Shown here piece after piece: positions 25,634-42,611 of a DNA stretch of 64,000 bases; within the stretch, counting starts at the first letter, position 1, and each line of letters begins with the position of its first letter. This DNA comes from a virus (Duplodnaviria; Caudoviricetes), in the IMG/VR virus record IMGVR_UViG_2855946969_000005, positions 1-64,000 of that record; one strand, written 5' to 3'. The notes beneath the pieces were generated by a model that saw only the letters and a program-made list of their open reading frames with translations, made no database searches and had not been told where the DNA came from. The position numbers and the translations under genes were made by a program.

Positions 25634-25772
25634 GCGCCCAGCGGCCATGTAGAGAGTGAGACCCACTACGCGCCTGCCGCCGGGCGCACACCAACCCTGA
25701 GATCCGGCTTCGGCCGGAAGCGGTCGGCGGCCAGGTGAATCATGGCCCCAACGGGACGTTGCCGCCGACCGC
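25634..25772 (+). ncRNA. two TIGR-like stem-loop dual-spacer units
   Basis: stem-CCA-TGTAGAGAG-TGAGACCCA-CTACGCGCC-TG-stem (25634-25687) and stem-CCA-GGTGAATCA-TGGCCCCA-ACGGGACGT-TG-stem (25720-25772). Confidence 0.75.
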
Positions 25773-29017: not shown

Positions 29018-29566
29018 ATGGCTATGGCCACCGCATCGCAACGAAATTCGTCGGCTGACGCTGTTGCCCAAGCCGCCCGCGCCGCGCTGAAAACGGCCAA
29101 TGGCGATGTCCGCACCGCTTCGGTCGCGCTCGAGGCGCGCGTGCGCCGGGATCGCGCCTTGCGGGACGCGCTCACCGATCCCTTGCTCGCCACCGCCTGC
29201 TACACGGCCGTGGCCGTTCAAGTCCGGCAGGCTCGGCGTTCGGTTTGGGCTGCACCCGCGGCGTCCCGCCAAGAGGCCGCGGCCGCGCCTCAGCGACGGG
29301 CCCCGGAGGATGCGCGCCGAGTCGCTCAGCTCGCGGCCGGCACGCTGGCCATGTTCCCGTTACCCGGCGGCAAGCGCCTCGGTGAGGCGACCCGGGAGGA
29401 GATTGCCGCGGCGGCCTCGTTCTACGAGGCGCAGAGCGCGGACATGGCGGACAAAGCCCGATGGCTCCGCCTGATCGCCCAGAGCGTGCCGCACGCGAAG
29501 AAGGTCGGCGACGTGCTCAACGAGCGCCGCTTGCGCGAATTGCAGACGGAGGCGCGTCGTGGATAG
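29018..29566 (+). CDS. hypothetical protein translationally coupled to the Tas-like gene
   Basis: FPLPGGKRLGEATREE. The stop overlaps the GTG of the next ORF. Confidence 0.65.
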   Translation: MAMATASQRNSSADAVAQAARAALKTANGDVRTASVALEARVRRDRALRDALTDPLLATACYTAVAVQVRQARRSVWAAPAASRQEAAAAPQRRAPEDARRVAQLAAGTLAMFPLPGGKRLGEATREEIAAAASFYEAQSADMADKARWLRLIAQSVPHAKKVGDVLNERRLRELQTEARRG

Positions 29567-30566
29567 GATCGAGTTGCCGGGCAAGCCCCGGCGCGGCCGG
29601 GCGGCCAGAAGGGATTTGTCCCCCAATGATGGCACGCCGCCCGCCGCACCCCATTCCGAGATCGGCGCCAGCGCCGATCGCGAGGCCGGCCACTGTTCCG
29701 ATGCGCCCCATAGAAGCGCTGCCGGTCTCGCACCCCATTCAGAGATCGTCAGCCGCGAGGCTGGCGAGGGCGAGGTCGGCCCTTCGTCCTGCGAACCCCA
29801 AGTACCGCCTGCCGACCTCGCCGACCAAATCGCCGAGCTCCGTGAGCAGTGGCGCCGCCGCCAAGCCTGGCATCGCGCTGAGAAGGCGCTGACGCTTCAG
29901 GCCAAGGCGCTGTGCCGCCGCCTCGCGGAGGGCGGTGACAAGGCGGAAGCGGATCGCATCTACGGCGCCGCCTACGGCAAGGGCTCGCATCCTCTGGCCG
30001 ACATCGCCCTCGCGGCGACCTTCCCGTTAACCGAGGCACGGGACAGCATCGCGAAGCACCGGGCGGCCGTGGAGAAGCGGCTCGTCAAGCTGGCGAAGGC
30101 GCTCCCGGTCGCGCCGTGGGTCGAGGGTACGCGCGGCGTCGGGCTGCTCTCGCTAGCAGCGATCGTGGGCGAGGCCGGCGATCTCGGCGCCTACGCGAAC
30201 CCGGCCAAGCTATGGAAGCGCATGGGTCTGGCCATCATGCCGGATGGGCGGCAGCGGCGGACCACGGGAGCGGCGGCGCTCGACCATGGGTATTCGCCGG
30301 CGCGGCGCTCCGTCGTCTGGAATATCGGCGCCTGCATCATGAAGGCTGGCGGGCCGCTGAAAGAGATCTACGACGCACGGAAACTATACGAACTGCCGCG
30401 CGTCGAGACGAAAGGACATGCTCACAACCGCGCTCAGCGGTACGTTGAGAAGCGATTTCTTCGCTTGCTCTGGTGCGAGTGGAGAAAAGGCGGGGGCGAC
30501 CACCGCGGCCCTGACACCCATAGGACGCGTGTCGCCTCCGTCACCCCCATTCCGGACGCCGCGTGA
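29559..30566 (+). CDS. IS110-C-terminal/Nop-like RNA-binding protein lacking RuvC (TIGR-Tas-like, nuclease-less)
   Basis: Coiled coil followed by GVGLLSLAAIVGEAGDL..Y.NPAKLWKRMGLA...RR...GYSP.RRS and H..A.RY..K.FL..LW. No DEDD RuvC domain. Flanked by dual-spacer hairpin units. Confidence 0.75.
   Translation: MDRIELPGKPRRGRAARRDLSPNDGTPPAAPHSEIGASADREAGHCSDAPHRSAAGLAPHSEIVSREAGEGEVGPSSCEPQVPPADLADQIAELREQWRRRQAWHRAEKALTLQAKALCRRLAEGGDKAEADRIYGAAYGKGSHPLADIALAATFPLTEARDSIAKHRAAVEKRLVKLAKALPVAPWVEGTRGVGLLSLAAIVGEAGDLGAYANPAKLWKRMGLAIMPDGRQRRTTGAAALDHGYSPARRSVVWNIGACIMKAGGPLKEIYDARKLYELPRVETKGHAHNRAQRYVEKRFLRLLWCEWRKGGGDHRGPDTHRTRVASVTPIPDAA
29598..29822 (+). ncRNA. three TIGR-like stem-loop dual-spacer units
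   Basis: Units 29598-29643 (GAAGGGATT/ATGATGGCA), 29680-29731 (CTGTTCCGA/TAGAAGCGC) and 29769-29822 (TTCGTCCTG/AGTACCGCC). Each has a 30-nt CA-N9-TGN4CCA-N9-T core (minor variants) closed by a GC stem. Confidence 0.8.
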
Positions 30567-30627
30567 GCGGCGAGGCGGGCGCGCCCAGTGGCACTCTGGC
30601 GCCCTTATCAGGAATGGCGCGCCCGCC
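30491..30627 (+). ncRNA. two TIGR-like stem-loop dual-spacer units
   Basis: 30491-30540 (CCGCGGCCC/TAGGACGCG) and 30574-30627 (GTGGCACTC/TATCAGGAA). Confidence 0.8.
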
Positions 30628-30780: not shown

Positions 30781-31332
30781 ATGCAGAACGTCGTGACCGT
30801 CCCGTTCCACGCCGACACCGTGTTCGCCGTCGAGCGCGCGGATGGGGTCTACATCGCCCTCAAGCCGATCGCCGACCGGCTCGGGCTCGACTGGTCCGCG
30901 CAGTACCGCCGAACCAAGCGCGATGTGGTGATGGCCCGAGGGATTGCCGTCATGGCAATACCTTCCGAGGGCGGCACGCAGGACGCGCTCTGCCTCCGCC
31001 TGCCACTCCTGCCGGGGTGGCTGTTCGGCATTGAGGTCCGCCGCGTGCGGGCCGAGTGCCGGGCCGCCGTGCTGGTCTATCAAGCCGAATGTCACGAGGC
31101 TCTTTTCCGGCACTTCTACGGCGTGGCGGACCGGGCGCCCGAGGCGCCGGACGCCCGGCGCGAGCCGCTGAAGGTGCGGCGGCAGATCGTGACGGAGGCC
31201 CGGCTGATCTTCGGGCCGCGGGCAGCTGCGGCGCTCTGGCGTTCGCTCGGCCTACCCGACGTGACGGAAATGGGCGCGCCGCCGGATCAAGGCGCGCTGC
31301 CGCTGGCACCGCCGAGCCCGCCTGCGCCTTAG
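30781..31332 (+). CDS. phage antirepressor (P22 Ant N-terminal-like domain)
   Basis: VPFH...YIALKPI...LGLDWSAQYRR...GG.Q...CL.L..LPGWLFGI...YQ.EC..ALF.HF. Confidence 0.85.
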   Translation: MQNVVTVPFHADTVFAVERADGVYIALKPIADRLGLDWSAQYRRTKRDVVMARGIAVMAIPSEGGTQDALCLRLPLLPGWLFGIEVRRVRAECRAAVLVYQAECHEALFRHFYGVADRAPEAPDARREPLKVRRQIVTEARLIFGPRAAAALWRSLGLPDVTEMGAPPDQGALPLAPPSPPAP

Positions 31333-31403: not shown

Positions 31404-32786
31404 ATGGGCGCTCCACCTCCGACGATCTACACCATCTACACCATTACTAATACCGTCAATGGTAAGATATATGTAGGACGCTCCAAAGAATATGAGCGCA
31501 GAAAACAAGCTCACCTGAATTGGTCCCGTCGTGGCGACAAGCCAAGGCATCCTCTATATAACTCAATCCGCAAGTACGGTGAGGAAGTTTTCGCTTTTGA
31601 AGTGATTGCGGATCTGGCCGGGTACGAAGAGTCTTTAGCGGCTGAGAAGACTCTGATATCGGAGCTGGGGACAACCAAACGAGATCGGGGATACAACATA
31701 TCCGATGGAGGTGAGGATATCCTATCTGCTATAAAAGCCAACGTCGCGCGGATAGAATTATGGAGGAAAGAGGATCCAGAAGGGTTCAAGGCTTACTATT
31801 CAGCCTTGAACAAGGCCGGCTGCGCTAGCCTGACCTTGGAGGCGAGGCAAGCAACAATACGGAAAGCCCATATAACAATGGGGCCAGCTGCAATGCGCGC
31901 CCGATTGTCAGCGACCAGAGCCGCACTGTCCCCGGCGGACCTGCGGGCCAACGCCGCGAAAGCACTCGCCACCCTCGGGCCCGAAGGTCGGAAAGCACGA
32001 GCACGCGCCGCCGTGGCCACCCTCGGTCCAGAGGGGCTAAGCGCCCGCGCCAAGAAAACGGTCGCGGCACAATCTCCCGAAGCGCGGAGCGATGCGCGCA
32101 GGCGTTCATGGAAGGCTCGGCGGGAGACATGGGCCAAACGTGCCGAACAAATCGGGCCGCCACCGACAATTACAGGTGCTCAACTGTTCGCCGCGCGGGA
32201 TCAATTGGGCTGGTCACGCCCTCGACTGTACGAATTGACAGGTGTAGGGCGCGGGACGATTGAAAACTTTGAGACAGGCGTTCGGCCAATGCCAGTCCAC
32301 AAGCTTGCGAAGATCGAGCGCGCCTTGACTGAGGCCGGCGTAGAAATATGTCATATTTCTGAGTTGTCTTCCGAATATACAGCCGACTTTAGTCCCCAAA
32401 ACCTGCCAATTTACCGCGAGAGGGCCAAGATTACGCAGGACGCTCTCTCGGAGATATCAGGTGTTCCAGCTTGGTTGATCAGGGATTACGAGCGGGGCGC
32501 CCGACCGATGCCCGGCTACAAGCTCGCCAAGATCGAGCGGGCCCTTGTCGCGCTCGGGCTTGACCTTGCGGTGCCGATCAAGCCCGAGCCGTCCGCCCCG
32601 GCCGACTTCGGTCCAGAGGAGGTAGCGCGGCGCAGAAAGGCGCTGTCGTGGTCTCGGGTCCGCCTATCCGAGGCGTCCGGCGTCCCGGTATGGTTGATCC
32701 TCGACTATGAGCACGGCAAGCGAGGCATACCGCCGAGGAAGCTCGCTCGGATCTGGGGCGCACTCACAGCGGGCACGCAAGACTGA
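31404..32786 (+). CDS. GIY-YIG endonuclease fused to helical repeats and three XRE-like HTH domains
   Basis: IYTITNTVNGKIYVGRS...R...H, IRKYG, GYN, repeats ATLGPEG, and three R..LGWSR..L/SGVP.WLI.DYE.G.R units. Confidence 0.75.
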   Translation: MGAPPPTIYTIYTITNTVNGKIYVGRSKEYERRKQAHLNWSRRGDKPRHPLYNSIRKYGEEVFAFEVIADLAGYEESLAAEKTLISELGTTKRDRGYNISDGGEDILSAIKANVARIELWRKEDPEGFKAYYSALNKAGCASLTLEARQATIRKAHITMGPAAMRARLSATRAALSPADLRANAAKALATLGPEGRKARARAAVATLGPEGLSARAKKTVAAQSPEARSDARRRSWKARRETWAKRAEQIGPPPTITGAQLFAARDQLGWSRPRLYELTGVGRGTIENFETGVRPMPVHKLAKIERALTEAGVEICHISELSSEYTADFSPQNLPIYRERAKITQDALSEISGVPAWLIRDYERGARPMPGYKLAKIERALVALGLDLAVPIKPEPSAPADFGPEEVARRRKALSWSRVRLSEASGVPVWLILDYEHGKRGIPPRKLARIWGALTAGTQD

Positions 32787-32888: not shown

Positions 32889-33311
32889 ATGCGCGCCGTA
32901 GCCGTAATCACCATCGCTGGGCATCTCCTCTGGTCCATGTCGGCCGCTATGGCCGAAGATGCGCGCCCGCCCGGCATCTACCTGCGAGACACCATCCAGA
33001 CACCAGCGGGATCTGCAGCATTCTCGGATCTGCTAAAGCAAGAAGCGAACGTGCCGCCGTGGTTGGGGAAATTTATAAGGGATGGTGATGGCATTGATAT
33101 GCCATTCAGACTTGTTCGAATAGACGGCGAGAAACACTATTATTCCAGAGTATGCCGACCCCGCGCATGTTGGCAGGACGAGGTCAACATACTGTTTACC
33201 GCAGACATGGCTCATGCTTGGGGCTATCGCCTTGAGAACGGGAAGCCTCACTGGGTTGGCTACGTGCCCCCTACAGTGAAGCGCGCCATCCTCAAGGCGC
33301 AATCCGAATAG
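32889..33311 (+). CDS. Ivy-family lysozyme inhibitor-like exported protein
   Basis: Signal peptide, P.W, CRPRAC resembling the Ivy CKPHDC loop, LFTAD..HAWG, W.G..P. Convergent with tape measure copy 1. Confidence 0.7.
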   Translation: MRAVAVITIAGHLLWSMSAAMAEDARPPGIYLRDTIQTPAGSAAFSDLLKQEANVPPWLGKFIRDGDGIDMPFRLVRIDGEKHYYSRVCRPRACWQDEVNILFTADMAHAWGYRLENGKPHWVGYVPPTVKRAILKAQSE

Positions 33312-41561: not shown

Positions 41562-42611
41562 TTACATGCCGTCGGCGTAGGCGACCGTCTCCGGGTACAC
41601 GAACTCCACGGCGCCGAGGCGGCCGTAGTAAGTCGTGATCTGGTAGAGGGAGCGGTACTCCAGCGGGGTGCGCTGCAGGGGCACCATCGGGAACCGCACG
41701 CGGTTCTTCTGCTGGGTGTAGGCCAGCATGCGGTCGGTGCCGCCGACGCCGCGGCCCGTGAGCCACTTCACCGGCTGGATGTCGAGCGGGCGACCGTTCT
41801 GGGCGTTCGCGATGCAGTTCTGCTTCACGTACTCCAGCACCGAGATGTTGCCGGCCTCGGAGACCTTGCGGCTCACGAGGTAGCTGAACTTCAGCGGCGC
41901 GAGCAGGAGCTTGCTCGGCACGACCGAGTAGCCGGTGGCGGTCCACGACGCGGTGAGCACGTCGTTGATGTCCGCCACGATCTCGTCGGCGGTCTTGTTG
42001 CGCCACAGCGGCGAGGCGGCGGCGCCGTTGGCCACGTTGGAGGCAGCGACCAGCGGCGAGTTGGCCAGACCGAACATGCCGAGCTCGGCATCGCCGATGT
42101 AGACCTGCTCGTCGATGTCCATGTCGTGCTTGATCGACAGGCCGGTGTACTTCTGCGCGTCGATCGGCCGGCCGGCGCGGATGGCCGACTCCAGCTCGGG
42201 CAGGGAGTATTTCAGCTCCTGCGCCCAGATCGGCAGCGGGTTGGCCGTCTTGCCGATGTCGAGCGCGATGCCGGCGATCTGGTTGGCGGCCTTCGAAGCC
42301 CAGGACTTGCCGCCCGGGGTGGTGCCGCCGACCGAGGCGAAGGTCGAGTTGGTGAAGCTCGACACCTCGTCGCCCATCGACACGTCCTCGCGGAGGTCGA
42401 TGTCACGACCCCAGGTCGTGGCGTAGAGCGGGGCGTGATCCTCCTGGTCGAGCCGCTCGAGCTCGCCGATGAGGAAGGCGCCGGTCGAGTCGATCGTCCG
42501 GCGGTCGTAGGTCTGGAAACCGCTGTCGAGCGTGCGGGCGCGGACCAGGGCGGGGGCGGCCAGGGTCAGGGCGGCGGCCGAGACGCCCACGATGTTGCGA
42601 GTGTGGAACAT
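41562..42611 (-). CDS. major capsid protein (DUF2184-like)
   Basis: DSTGAFL.GELERLD, TW.RDI.LREDV, GRPID.QK, Y.GRLG.VE.VYPET..Y.DG. Confidence 0.9.
   Translation of the reverse strand: MFHTRNIVGVSAAALTLAAPALVRARTLDSGFQTYDRRTIDSTGAFLIGELERLDQEDHAPLYATTWGRDIDLREDVSMGDEVSSFTNSTFASVGGTTPGGKSWASKAANQIAGIALDIGKTANPLPIWAQELKYSLPELESAIRAGRPIDAQKYTGLSIKHDMDIDEQVYIGDAELGMFGLANSPLVAASNVANGAAASPLWRNKTADEIVADINDVLTASWTATGYSVVPSKLLLAPLKFSYLVSRKVSEAGNISVLEYVKQNCIANAQNGRPLDIQPVKWLTGRGVGGTDRMLAYTQQKNRVRFPMVPLQRTPLEYRSLYQITTYYGRLGAVEFVYPETVAYADGM

What the first reader, a model, noticed from the sequence alone, without database searches (positions are those of the whole stretch)
30902..31118. Four TIGR-like guides point at the adjacent antirepressor gene
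Each unit's target was built as spacer A plus the reverse complement of spacer B (or its complement). Unit 1: GAAGGGAT(T)GCCATCAT versus 30937-30953 CGAGGGATTGCCGTCAT, 14/17. Unit 2: CTGTTCCG-GCGCTTCTA versus 31102-31118 CTTTTCCGGCACTTCTA, 15/17 (LFRRFY versus LFRHFY). Unit 3: AGTACCGCC-GGACGAAG versus 30902-30918 AGTACCGCCGAACCAAG, 15/17 (both QYRRTK). Unit 5: TATCAGGAA-GAGTGCCAC versus 31078-31095 TATCAAGCCGAATGTCAC, 13/18 (YQEECH versus YQAECH). All four fall within ~220 bp of one gene, with mainly synonymous or conservative differences. Inference: silencing of a rival phage's antirepressor allele, or tuning of its own. Caveat: the two halves overlap by 0, 1 or 2 nt depending on the unit, and unit 4 has no convincing joint match.
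Basis: partly seen in the sequence, partly recalled or inferred. Interest (0 to 1): 0.88.

Follow-up and report, generated by a model that had tools for sequence, protein, structure and literature searches.

The report
Phage TIGR-TasA guides aimed at antirepressor
A phage carries a nuclease-free RNA-guided DNA-binding system (TIGR-TasA) in which four of its five nearby guide RNAs are aimed at the antirepressor gene family, including the imperfectly matching copy next door, which gives this newly described system a candidate natural target.

Summary
The four strings, coordinates and match counts (14/17, 15/17, 15/17, 13/18) are exact.

The locus is a genuine stem-loop TIGR-TasA system:
- The protein matches TasR (PDB 9MTY) by sequence (E 2.3e-14) and by fold (TM 0.66-0.68).
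- Five hairpin units have the layout CCA-9nt-TG-N4-CCA-9nt-TG.

The matches are not chance:
- For U1-U3 the best hit in the 64-kb window lies in the adjacent P22_AR_N antirepressor gene, and only for cognate pairs in the A+rc(B) geometry.
- Shuffle p-values are 3e-4, 2e-3 and 5e-3.
- Only 1 of 294 real guides from other loci reaches 15/18 on this gene.

Among 94 distinct antirepressor alleles, all four guides hit the homologous sites. Some alleles match better than the resident one (17, 16, 16 and 16 of 18), and self ranks third. No perfect target was found.

Most likely TasA-tigRNA complexes block transcription of antirepressor genes. Whether the main target is a rival phage's allele or the phage's own gene stays open.

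Earlier notes of this scan describe similar near-self targets in other phages.

The parts
29559..30566 (+). tasA-like ORF. The conserved coiled-coil + Nop core is 29829-30563. The 5' 270 nt of the ORF overlap units U1-U3, and the true start is unresolved.
   Evidence: phmmer to PDB 9mty_A (TasR) gives E 2.3e-14 over residues 82-220. The AF2 model has pLDDT 87.7. Foldseek's top hits are TasR 9mty (TM 0.66-0.68) and then TasH entries, ahead of IS110-family recombinases. There is no Pfam domain and no nuclease domain. 680 homologues were found.
29590..29648 (+). tigRNA unit U1 (spacer A 29608-29616, spacer B 29626-29634)
   Evidence: Layout CCA-9-TG-TCCC-CCA-9-CG. The stem closes the loop in the MFE fold.
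29680..29731 (+). tigRNA unit U2 (A 29693-29701, B 29711-29719)
   Evidence: Layout CCA-9-TG-CGCC-CCA-9-TG with an 11-bp stem.
29769..29822 (+). tigRNA unit U3 (A 29781-29789 or 29783-29791, B 29801-29809)
   Evidence: 12-bp perfect stem with a 30-nt loop. The first box C is degenerate (CCC/GGC).
30489..30542 (+). tigRNA unit U4, inside the 3' end of the tasA ORF (A 30503-30511, B 30521-30529). It has no antirepressor match.
   Evidence: (p 0.88)
30574..30627 (+). tigRNA unit U5, between tasA and the antirepressor gene (A 30588-30596, B 30606-30614)
   Evidence: Layout CCA-9-TG-GCGC-CCT-9-TG with a 12-bp stem.
30781..31332 (+). Antirepressor gene (P22_AR_N domain, residues 6-113)
   Evidence: Pfam PF10547 E 2.5e-27. 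PHROG 524 'anti-repressor Ant' E 1.9e-38.
30902..30919 (-). Target site of U3 (B 9/9, A 6/9), codons 41-46 QYRRTK
30937..30953 (+). Target site of U1 (A 7/9, B 8/9, one shared base pair), codons 53-58. An overlapping second U1 site lies at 30949-30965 on the minus strand (15/18) because the region is a near-palindrome.
31078..31095 (-). Target site of U5 (A 7/9, B 6/9), codons 100-105 YQAECH
   Evidence: The homologous site scores 16/18 in L055.
31102..31118 (+). Target site of U2 (A 7/9, B 8/9, offset -1), codons 108-113 LFRHFY
   Evidence: The homologous site scores 16/18 in L201, L203 and L210.

Best explanation
This is a stem-loop TIGR-TasA system carried by a phage or prophage.

The nuclease-free Tas protein is inferred, by homology to PlTasA/TasR, to act as a dimer. 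It would load each hairpin tigRNA. Spacer A pairs with one DNA strand and spacer B with the other, over a contiguous 17-18 bp. The bound complex acts as a roadblock to transcription.

Four of the five guides around tasA (U1, U2, U3, U5) are aimed at four segments of the N-terminal domain of P22-type antirepressor (Ant) genes. The resident ant gene, 215 nt downstream of tasA on the same strand, carries 2-5 mismatches per site. Ant alleles of related Methylobacterium-type prophages carry 1-2.

I read the system as an RNA-guided 'anti-antirepressor'. It would mainly silence ant genes of related co-resident or superinfecting phages, which could otherwise switch the lysogen into lytic growth. The phage's own allele would escape fully or partly.

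Shown here: the family membership, the unit anatomy, the geometry-specific and gene-specific matches, and the better matches in other alleles.

Inferred: expression and processing of the guides, DNA binding, repression, and which allele is the physiological target.
For: Identity of the system:
- TasR sequence and fold matches.
- Units with box C (CCA) and box D (TG) and closing stems.
- The same units with different spacers occur beside homologues in 14 genome loci and 80 metagenome loci. 308 units lie on the tasA strand against 15 on the other strand in 99 loci.

Targeting of ant:
- The window-wide best hits of U1-U3 lie in the ant gene.
- In-gene best exceeds the rest of the window for 3 of 5 cognate class-I pairs. 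The same holds for 0 of 15 other-geometry tests (2 ties) and 1 of 20 mispaired tests (1 tie).
- Shuffle p-values are 3e-4, 2e-3 and 5e-3.
- 1 of 294 foreign guides reaches >=15 on the gene.
- Over 94 distinct ant alleles, U1, U2, U3 and U5 reach 17, 16, 16 and 16 of 18 at the homologous sites and in the same registers. By comparison, 3 of 294 foreign guides and 6 of 882 shuffles reach >=16.
- The guides read in frame as Ant-like peptides, and 6 of 12 mismatches to self are synonymous third positions.

Trans rather than cis:
- 7, 4, 1 and 7 of 93 other alleles beat self for U1, U2, U3 and U5.
- The two best alleles (L209, L201) sit in a genome in which tasA was not found with this query.
- At five of the six synonymous mismatches (codons 44, 101, 103, 104, 108) and at codon 53, the guide carries the family's commonest codon.
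- Published TasH data show strong mismatch sensitivity (passages of preprint 10.64898/2026.08.11.744272; passages of PMC13421893).
- TasA proteins repress transcription with reprogrammed guides (sections 12-13 of preprint 10.64898/2026.09.09.750476).
Against: - No perfectly matching allele was found. Exact 17-mers of U1, U2 and U3 gave 4, 6 and 7 hits in IMG/VR, none in an ant homologue. The best alleles still have 1-2 mismatches.
- Self ranks third of 94 alleles in summed match (58, against 61 and 60; median 49). The guides are therefore about as close to the resident allele as to any sampled one.
- The test for site-specific synonymous recoding of the resident allele was not significant (Fisher p 0.26 and 0.18). 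Allele L044 shares several of the resident's 'rare' codons.
- TasR bound and nicked an E. coli site with 9/9 + 6/9 pairing (passage of PMC12045711). That is exactly U3's match to self, so binding to the resident gene is not excluded.
- Cis or antirepressor targeting is not general in the family. 1 of 38 units in 14 related genome loci has a >=15/18 hit within about 6 kb. L118 has an ant gene beside tasA, but its 5 units do not match it.
- The register differs between units (-1, -1, 0, 0).
- There are no expression data.
Confidence: 0.55

Rival explanations
1. Cis autoregulation. The guides tune or shut off the phage's own antirepressor gene, playing the role that Mnt and the sar RNA play for ant in P22 (recalled, not checked here). 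Imperfect pairing would be tolerated or would set a weak, adjustable block. TasA complexes bound at the four sites would stop read-through from tasA into ant.
For: - The targets lie 0.3-0.55 kb downstream of the array on the same strand, and no terminator-like or promoter-like site was found on that strand between tasA and ant.
- Self is third-best of 94 alleles.
- U3 pairs 9/9 + 6/9 with self, a degree of pairing that sufficed for TasR binding and nicking in E. coli.
- A mismatch at spacer position 1 is tolerated by TasH, and U1's spacer A mismatches are at positions 1-2.
Against: - Every site has 2-5 mismatches, several at central positions: U1 B5, U3 A5, U5 A4.
- TasH is strongly mismatch-sensitive, and adjacent double mismatches abolish activity.
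- Other alleles match better.
- A regulator selected for cis control would be expected to match its target.
- L118's array ignores its neighbouring ant gene.
Confidence: 0.27
2. Relic guides. The spacers once matched an ant allele, either an ancestor of the resident one or one replaced by recombination. They have since drifted and now repress nothing.
For: - No perfect target was found anywhere searched.
- The recoding test was not significant.
- How TIGR spacers are acquired and turned over is unknown (Discussion passages of PMC12045711; section 13 of the 2026 preprint).
Against: - Boxes, stems and loop lengths of all four units are intact.
- The tasA ORF is intact, and its core model is confident.
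- The guides keep the family's commonest codons rather than random changes.
- The sampled alleles number only 94 and are 42-68% identical in protein to self, so the true target may simply be unsampled.
Confidence: 0.13
3. Chance. Short GC-rich 9-mers in a GC-rich window give such matches without any meaning.
For: - Mock spacer pairs cut from the window reach 15/18 on the gene in 2.2% of tries.
- One other 15/18 hit of U3 exists elsewhere in the 99-kb contig.
- U5's 13/18 alone has p 0.09.
Against: - Three units independently have their window-best hit in one 552-bp gene.
- The signal is specific to the geometry and to cognate pairs.
- The same sites and registers recur, with higher scores, in independent alleles.
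- 1 of 294 foreign guides reaches 15/18 on the gene.
Confidence: 0.03

Closest known systems
Stem-loop TIGR-TasA systems (PlTasA from a Peromyscus leucopus gut contig, BlTasA, MbTasA; Faure et al. 2025, PMC12045711; Xu et al. 2026 preprint 10.64898/2026.09.09.750476; preprint 10.64898/2026.08.11.744272)
   Same: - A nuclease-free coiled-coil + Nop protein.
- Hairpin units with two ~9-nt spacers, each preceded by box C (CCA) and followed by box D (UG).
- Units lie upstream, downstream and inside the tas ORF.
- The target is spacer A on one strand plus spacer B on the other.
   Different: A coherent set of natural targets can be named here: four guides on one gene family, one copy of it next door. 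The papers state that natural targets mostly cannot be determined. The conserved 3' flank is CACCCCATTC rather than the reported CUU motif. The host clade is GC-rich Alphaproteobacteria-type phages rather than CPR or gut contigs.
TaTasR / SpTasH dual-repeat TIGR systems (PDB 9MTY, 9W03, 9W04)
   Same: Best sequence and fold matches of the protein, and the same tandem-spacer logic.
   Different: Those carry RuvC or HNH nucleases and 36-nt dual-repeat guides. This protein has no nuclease domain, and its guides are long-stem hairpins.
IS110/IS621 bridge-RNA recombinases (PDB 8WT6, 8WT9)
   Same: The Nop-like RNA-binding domain gives weaker fold hits (E 0.01-0.05). Databases label homologues 'IS110 family transposase'.
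   Different: No DEDD/RuvC domain and no donor/target double loop. The guides come as multi-unit arrays, not as a single bridge RNA.
Control of the ant gene in phage P22 (immI: Mnt, Arc, sar RNA), and nuclease-free CRISPR repressors of mobile elements (type IV, V-M) — recalled from general knowledge; the latter are also cited in PMC12045711
   Same: The functional logic is the same: a temperate phage keeps antirepressor expression off, in itself and in superinfecting relatives, and mobile elements use guide-directed binding without cleavage against competitors.
   Different: The effector here would be an RNA-guided Tas protein binding inside the coding sequence, not a protein repressor at an operator or an antisense RNA. 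There is no homology to Mnt/Arc or to Cas proteins.

Membership tests
TIGR-Tas (TasA, stem-loop type) | Protein with the coiled-coil + Nop RNA-binding domain homologous to characterised Tas proteins | tested here: met
   9mty_A E 2.3e-14. Foldseek 9mty_B E 6.3e-7, TM 0.66. TasH entries score E 1e-4 to 7e-4.
TIGR-Tas (TasA, stem-loop type) | No nuclease domain (TasA rather than TasR/TasH) | tested here: met
   No Pfam domain in the 335-aa ORF. The 245-aa core is all-helical and aligns to the CC-Nop part. The N-terminal 90 aa are encoded by units U1-U3.
TIGR-Tas (TasA, stem-loop type) | Guide units with two 8-12-nt spacers, each flanked by box C (CCA) and box D (UG) | tested here: met
   Five units around tasA have CCA-9-TG-N4-CCA-9-TG. 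There are three deviations: the first box C of U3, the second box C of U5 (CCT), and the last box D of U1 (CG).
TIGR-Tas (TasA, stem-loop type) | Palindromic arms closing each spacer pair into a hairpin | tested here: met
   11-12-bp stems appear in the MFE folds of all five units, with z-scores from -1.6 to -3.5.
TIGR-Tas (TasA, stem-loop type) | Boxes and architecture conserved, spacers variable among relatives | tested here: met
   Units lie beside homologues in related loci, with different spacers. 308 are on the tasA strand against 15 on the other strand in 99 loci.
TIGR-Tas (TasA, stem-loop type) | Targets follow the tandem-spacer geometry (A identical to one strand, B to the other, 3' ends meeting) | tested here: met
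   Only A+rc(B) with cognate pairs gives in-gene scores above the window background.
TIGR-Tas (TasA, stem-loop type) | Conserved CUU motif at the stem base marking processing (Xu et al. 2026) | tested here: inconclusive
   I saw no CUU at the stem bases on reading the sequence. Instead CACCCC(C)ATTC follows U1, U2 and U4.
TIGR-Tas (TasA, stem-loop type) | tigRNAs expressed, processed and bound by the protein; RNA-guided DNA binding | not testable with these tools
   No RNA holder was listed. The single run holding the stretch gives contigs identical to the window in the array and target region.
P22-type antirepressor (Ant, P22_AR_N) | N-terminal P22_AR_N domain | tested here: met
   PF10547 E 2.5e-27, 95.8 bits against a cut-off of 30.7. 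PHROG 524 E 1.9e-38.
P22-type antirepressor (Ant, P22_AR_N) | Binds and inactivates a phage repressor | not testable with these tools
   The function is inferred from the family name only. The C-terminal 70 aa have no family match.

The most novel reading that the evidence does not exclude
A temperate phage uses nuclease-free TIGR-TasA as programmable, RNA-guided superinfection immunity. Its guides silence the antirepressor genes of rival phages of the same clade, so that those phages cannot induce the resident. The resident's own antirepressor allele has changed at exactly these sites so that it escapes. This would be the first natural target and biological role established for a TasA system. 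It would also be an arms race readable in the codons of one gene.
Probability: 0.4. Interest if true: 0.85.

Novelty: new member of a known kind. Interest (0 to 1): 0.7.

Why it matters
TIGR-Tas systems were described in 2025, and TasA proteins were shown in 2026 to repress transcription with reprogrammed guides. Both papers say that the natural targets and the biological role are unknown, because 9-nt spacers give too many false matches.

Here four guides of one array converge on one gene family with a known role in the lysis-lysogeny switch. One copy lies next door, and the statistics survive shuffled, mispaired, wrong-geometry and foreign-guide controls.

This turns the open question 'what do TasA systems do in phages?' into a short list of bench tests with defined DNA sites.

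In the library searched, no paper holds both 'TIGR-Tas' and 'antirepressor'.

Tried and rejected
- Cis targeting as a family rule: rejected. In 14 related genome loci, 1 of 38 units has a >=15/18 hit within the locus, and none of the 14 loci holds an ant homologue. L118, the only other locus with ant beside tasA, has 5 units with no hit >=13 inside its ant ORF.
- Antirepressor as a general target of the family: rejected. 35 of 294 foreign units reach >=15 on any of 94 alleles, against 62 of 882 shuffles; for >=16 the counts are 3 against 6.
- A pooled search of 219 strict units against 1.55 Mb of fetched loci gave 114 hits at 16/18 and 7 at 17/18. One shuffle per unit gave 51 and 4. This is too weak to name targets.
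- Escape recoding of the resident allele: suggestive but not shown. A/T-ending codons are enriched in the sites (8 of 22 against 26 of 183, P 0.005). Comparison with 43 alleles was not significant (8 of 20 against 19 of 65 codons off the majority codon, p 0.26; rare codons 4 of 20 against 6 of 65, p 0.18).
- Exact composite 17-mers in IMG/VR: U1 gave 4, U2 gave 6 and U3 gave 7 hits, none in an ant homologue. Three of the U2 hits lie in one small conserved phage ORF next to a long ORF (L211, L215, L216). I take these as one chance event copied by relatedness.
- blastn of the ant gene against the 'phages' and 'plasmids' collections: no match.
- Distal units U6/U7 (25645-25676, 25731-25761): their best window hits (15/18 and 14/18) lie elsewhere, and nothing >=14 lies in the gene downstream of them.
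- Sequencing runs: no RNA holder was listed. The one holder (X1, contigs) is identical to the window across the array and targets, and two differences lie at 31613 and 32492. This is no evidence on expression.
- P0130, a Methylorubrum MAG allele, shares EGIAIM, QYRRTK and LFRRF with the guide readings.
- Supplements of the TIGR papers (table S1, TIGRSafari annotations) are closed. They may already list this locus or its relatives.

Full report
**What is there**

The region 29.5-31.4 kb of the window (66.9% G+C) holds three elements on the + strand:
- an ORF at 29559-30566;
- a 214-nt spacer region;
- a 183-codon gene at 30781-31332.

The second gene is a P22-type antirepressor: Pfam P22_AR_N E 2.5e-27 and PHROG 524 'anti-repressor Ant' E 1.9e-38.

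The first ORF has no Pfam match. Its conserved 245-aa core (29829-30563) matches the TasR chain of PDB 9MTY by sequence (E 2.3e-14). 9MTY is the TIGR-TasR structure of Faure et al. 2025 (passage of PMC12045711).

An AlphaFold2 model built on 27 homologues (pLDDT 87.7, pTM 0.79) finds these structures, in this order:
- TasR 9mty (TM 0.66-0.68);
- seven TasH chains (six entries);
- IS110-family recombinases (ISCro4, then IS621).

There is no nuclease domain, so this is a TasA.

**The guides**

Five hairpins surround and enter the ORF. Each has an 11-12-bp stem closing a 30-nt loop of the form CCA-9nt-TG-N4-CCA-9nt-TG. This is the published signature: box C = CCA, box D = UG, two spacers of about 9 nt, and palindromic arms in the stem-loop type (passages of PMC12045711; sections 3 and 5 of preprint 10.64898/2026.09.09.750476).
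- U1-U3 lie in the 5' part of the ORF.
- U4 lies in its last codons.
- U5 lies just downstream.

Two more units sit 3.8 kb upstream.

The protein family is large: 680 homologues, named 'hypothetical' or 'IS110 family transposase' by their sources. In 99 related loci the same unit type occurs 308 times on the tasA strand and 15 times on the other strand, with different spacers.

**Checking the observation**

The geometry used (spacer A as written, followed by the reverse complement of spacer B) is the right one for two reasons:
- Box C sits at the outer DNA-unwinding junction, so the 3' ends of the spacers meet in the middle (section 5 of preprint 10.64898/2026.08.11.744272).
- Only this arrangement gives the reported 8-nt 3' overhangs (my derivation from the passages).

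I scored both 9-mers with offsets -2 to +2 over both strands of the window.
- The best non-self hit of U1, U2 and U3 is in the antirepressor gene (15/18 each).
- U5 is tied-best at 13/18.
- U4 has nothing there.

**Controls**

| Test | In-gene best exceeds rest of window |
|---|---|
| Cognate pairs, A+rc(B) geometry | 3 of 5 |
| Other geometries | 0 of 15 (2 ties) |
| Mispaired A/B combinations | 1 of 20 (1 tie) |

- Shuffled spacers reach the observed in-gene score in 1, 6 and 15 of 3000 tries for U1-U3. The fractions are 0.088 for U5 and 0.88 for U4.
- Mock pairs cut from the window reach 15/18 in 2.2% of tries.
- Real guides from other TasA loci reach 15/18 in 1 of 294.

Chance is excluded for U1-U3 together.

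**Other alleles**

I collected antirepressor homologues from three sources:
- 79 viral contigs;
- 12 of 401 genomes of the family around Methylobacterium iners;
- 10 of 146 genomes of its genus.

This gave 94 distinct alleles, 42-68% identical in protein to the resident one. The four guides hit the homologous codons in the same registers, and some alleles match better than self:

| Guide | Best score | Alleles |
|---|---|---|
| U1 | 17/18 | L027, L031, L035, L096 |
| U2 | 16/18 | L201, L203, L210 |
| U3 | 16/18 | L209 |
| U5 | 16/18 | L055 |

- Only 3 of 294 foreign guides and 6 of 882 shuffles reach 16/18 on this allele set. In this array 4 of 5 local guides do.
- In summed score the resident allele (58) is third, behind L209 (61) and L201 (60). 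The median is 49.
- L209 and L201 lie in one Methylobacterium-genus genome, in which tasA was not found with this query.
- No other ant locus holds tasA or units, apart from one unit-like hit.

**Nature of the mismatches**

The guides read in frame as EGIAIM, LFRRFY, QYRRTK and YQEECH, all plausible Ant peptides. Of the 12 mismatched bases, 6 are synonymous third positions.

In five of those six, the resident allele has an A/T-ending codon where the guide has the G/C-ending one: CGA, CAA, GAA, TGT and CTT. In all five the guide's codon is also the commonest among 43 alleles. The resident Arg53 (CGA) stands where almost all alleles, and the guide, have Glu.

This looks like escape of the resident allele, but the formal comparison of in-site and off-site codons is not significant (p 0.26 and 0.18). 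Allele L044 also shares several of these states. I therefore treat recoding as a lead, not a result.

**How it most likely works**

By homology, TasA dimers load the processed hairpins, unwind 17-18 bp and pair one spacer with each strand. TasA proteins with reprogrammed guides repress transcription reversibly (section 12 of the 2026 preprint).

The four sites form two close pairs inside the N-terminal domain:
- 30902-30919 and 30937-30953;
- 31078-31095 and 31102-31118.

I read the array as directed at antirepressor genes of the phage's own clade.

**Which allele is the target?**

For a rival allele:
- Better-matching alleles exist.
- TasH is strongly mismatch-sensitive.
- The guides carry the family's commonest codons.

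For self-tuning:
- The resident gene lies just downstream on the same strand, and no terminator-like site was found between tasA and ant.
- Self ranks third of 94 alleles.
- TasR bound and nicked a 9/9 + 6/9 site in E. coli, which is exactly U3's pairing with self.

Against both: no perfect target was found.

My odds are about 0.55 for mainly rival alleles (with or without weak self-damping), 0.27 for cis tuning, 0.13 for relic guides and 0.03 for chance.

**Comparison with what is known**

The system is a member of the stem-loop TIGR-TasA class, and all testable defining features are met. What is new is a nameable natural target set. Both TIGR papers say natural targets mostly cannot be determined. 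No paper in the library holds 'TIGR-Tas' together with 'antirepressor'.

The targeting is specific to this array. Related arrays do not hit antirepressors or their own neighbourhoods.

**Earlier notes of this scan**

Earlier AI notes of this scan, on other phages, describe TasA guides that nearly match the phage's own genes at silent positions, or that match sibling elements. They are unchecked. They prompted my recoding test and are not counted as evidence.

**Limits**

- No expression data.
- Supplements of the papers are closed.
- The true start of tasA and the processing sites of the guides are unresolved.

Noticed in passing
window 25645-25676 and 25731-25761: Two further strict TIGR units (CCA-9-TG-N3/4-CCA-9-TG with 10-11 of 11 stem pairs) lie 3.8 kb upstream of tasA. 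Their best window hits are 15/18 at 33260 and 14/18 at 42428, and nothing >=14 lies in the gene just downstream of them.
   Followed up: partly
window 29647-29664, 29731-29748, 30543-30560: A conserved motif CACCCC(C)ATTC follows the 3' arm of U1, U2 and U4. Similar CACC(C/T)AT(T)C motifs follow units in L118. It may be the processing signal of this clade, and it differs from the published CUU motif.
   Followed up: no
window 29018-29566: The 182-aa ORF just upstream of tasA has its stop overlapping the GTG at 29559. It has no Pfam or PHROG match. Its C-terminal 80 aa are conserved directly upstream of tasA in 7 of 14 related genome loci. It is a candidate partner gene of this TasA clade.
   Followed up: partly
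window 30937-30965: The U1 target region is a near-palindrome (GGGATTGCC..GGCAATACC), so U1 scores 15/18 in both orientations on overlapping sites.
   Followed up: no
window 31404-32786: The gene after ant encodes a GIY-YIG nuclease domain fused to three HTH_3-type domains. Its third-position G+C is only 62%, against 80-86% in its neighbours, which suggests recent acquisition.
   Followed up: no
loci L201, L209, L210 (one contig of genome G449, 787992-820664): One Methylobacterium-genus genome carries three antirepressor paralogues within 33 kb. Two of them are the alleles best matched by this window's guides, and tasA was not found in that genome with this query.
   Followed up: partly
loci L211, L215, L216: Three related viral contigs share a small ORF (147 aa in L215) that contains the exact 17-nt composite of U2 (…LFRRFYTAG…) just upstream of a long ORF. 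It is not an Ant homologue.
   Followed up: partly
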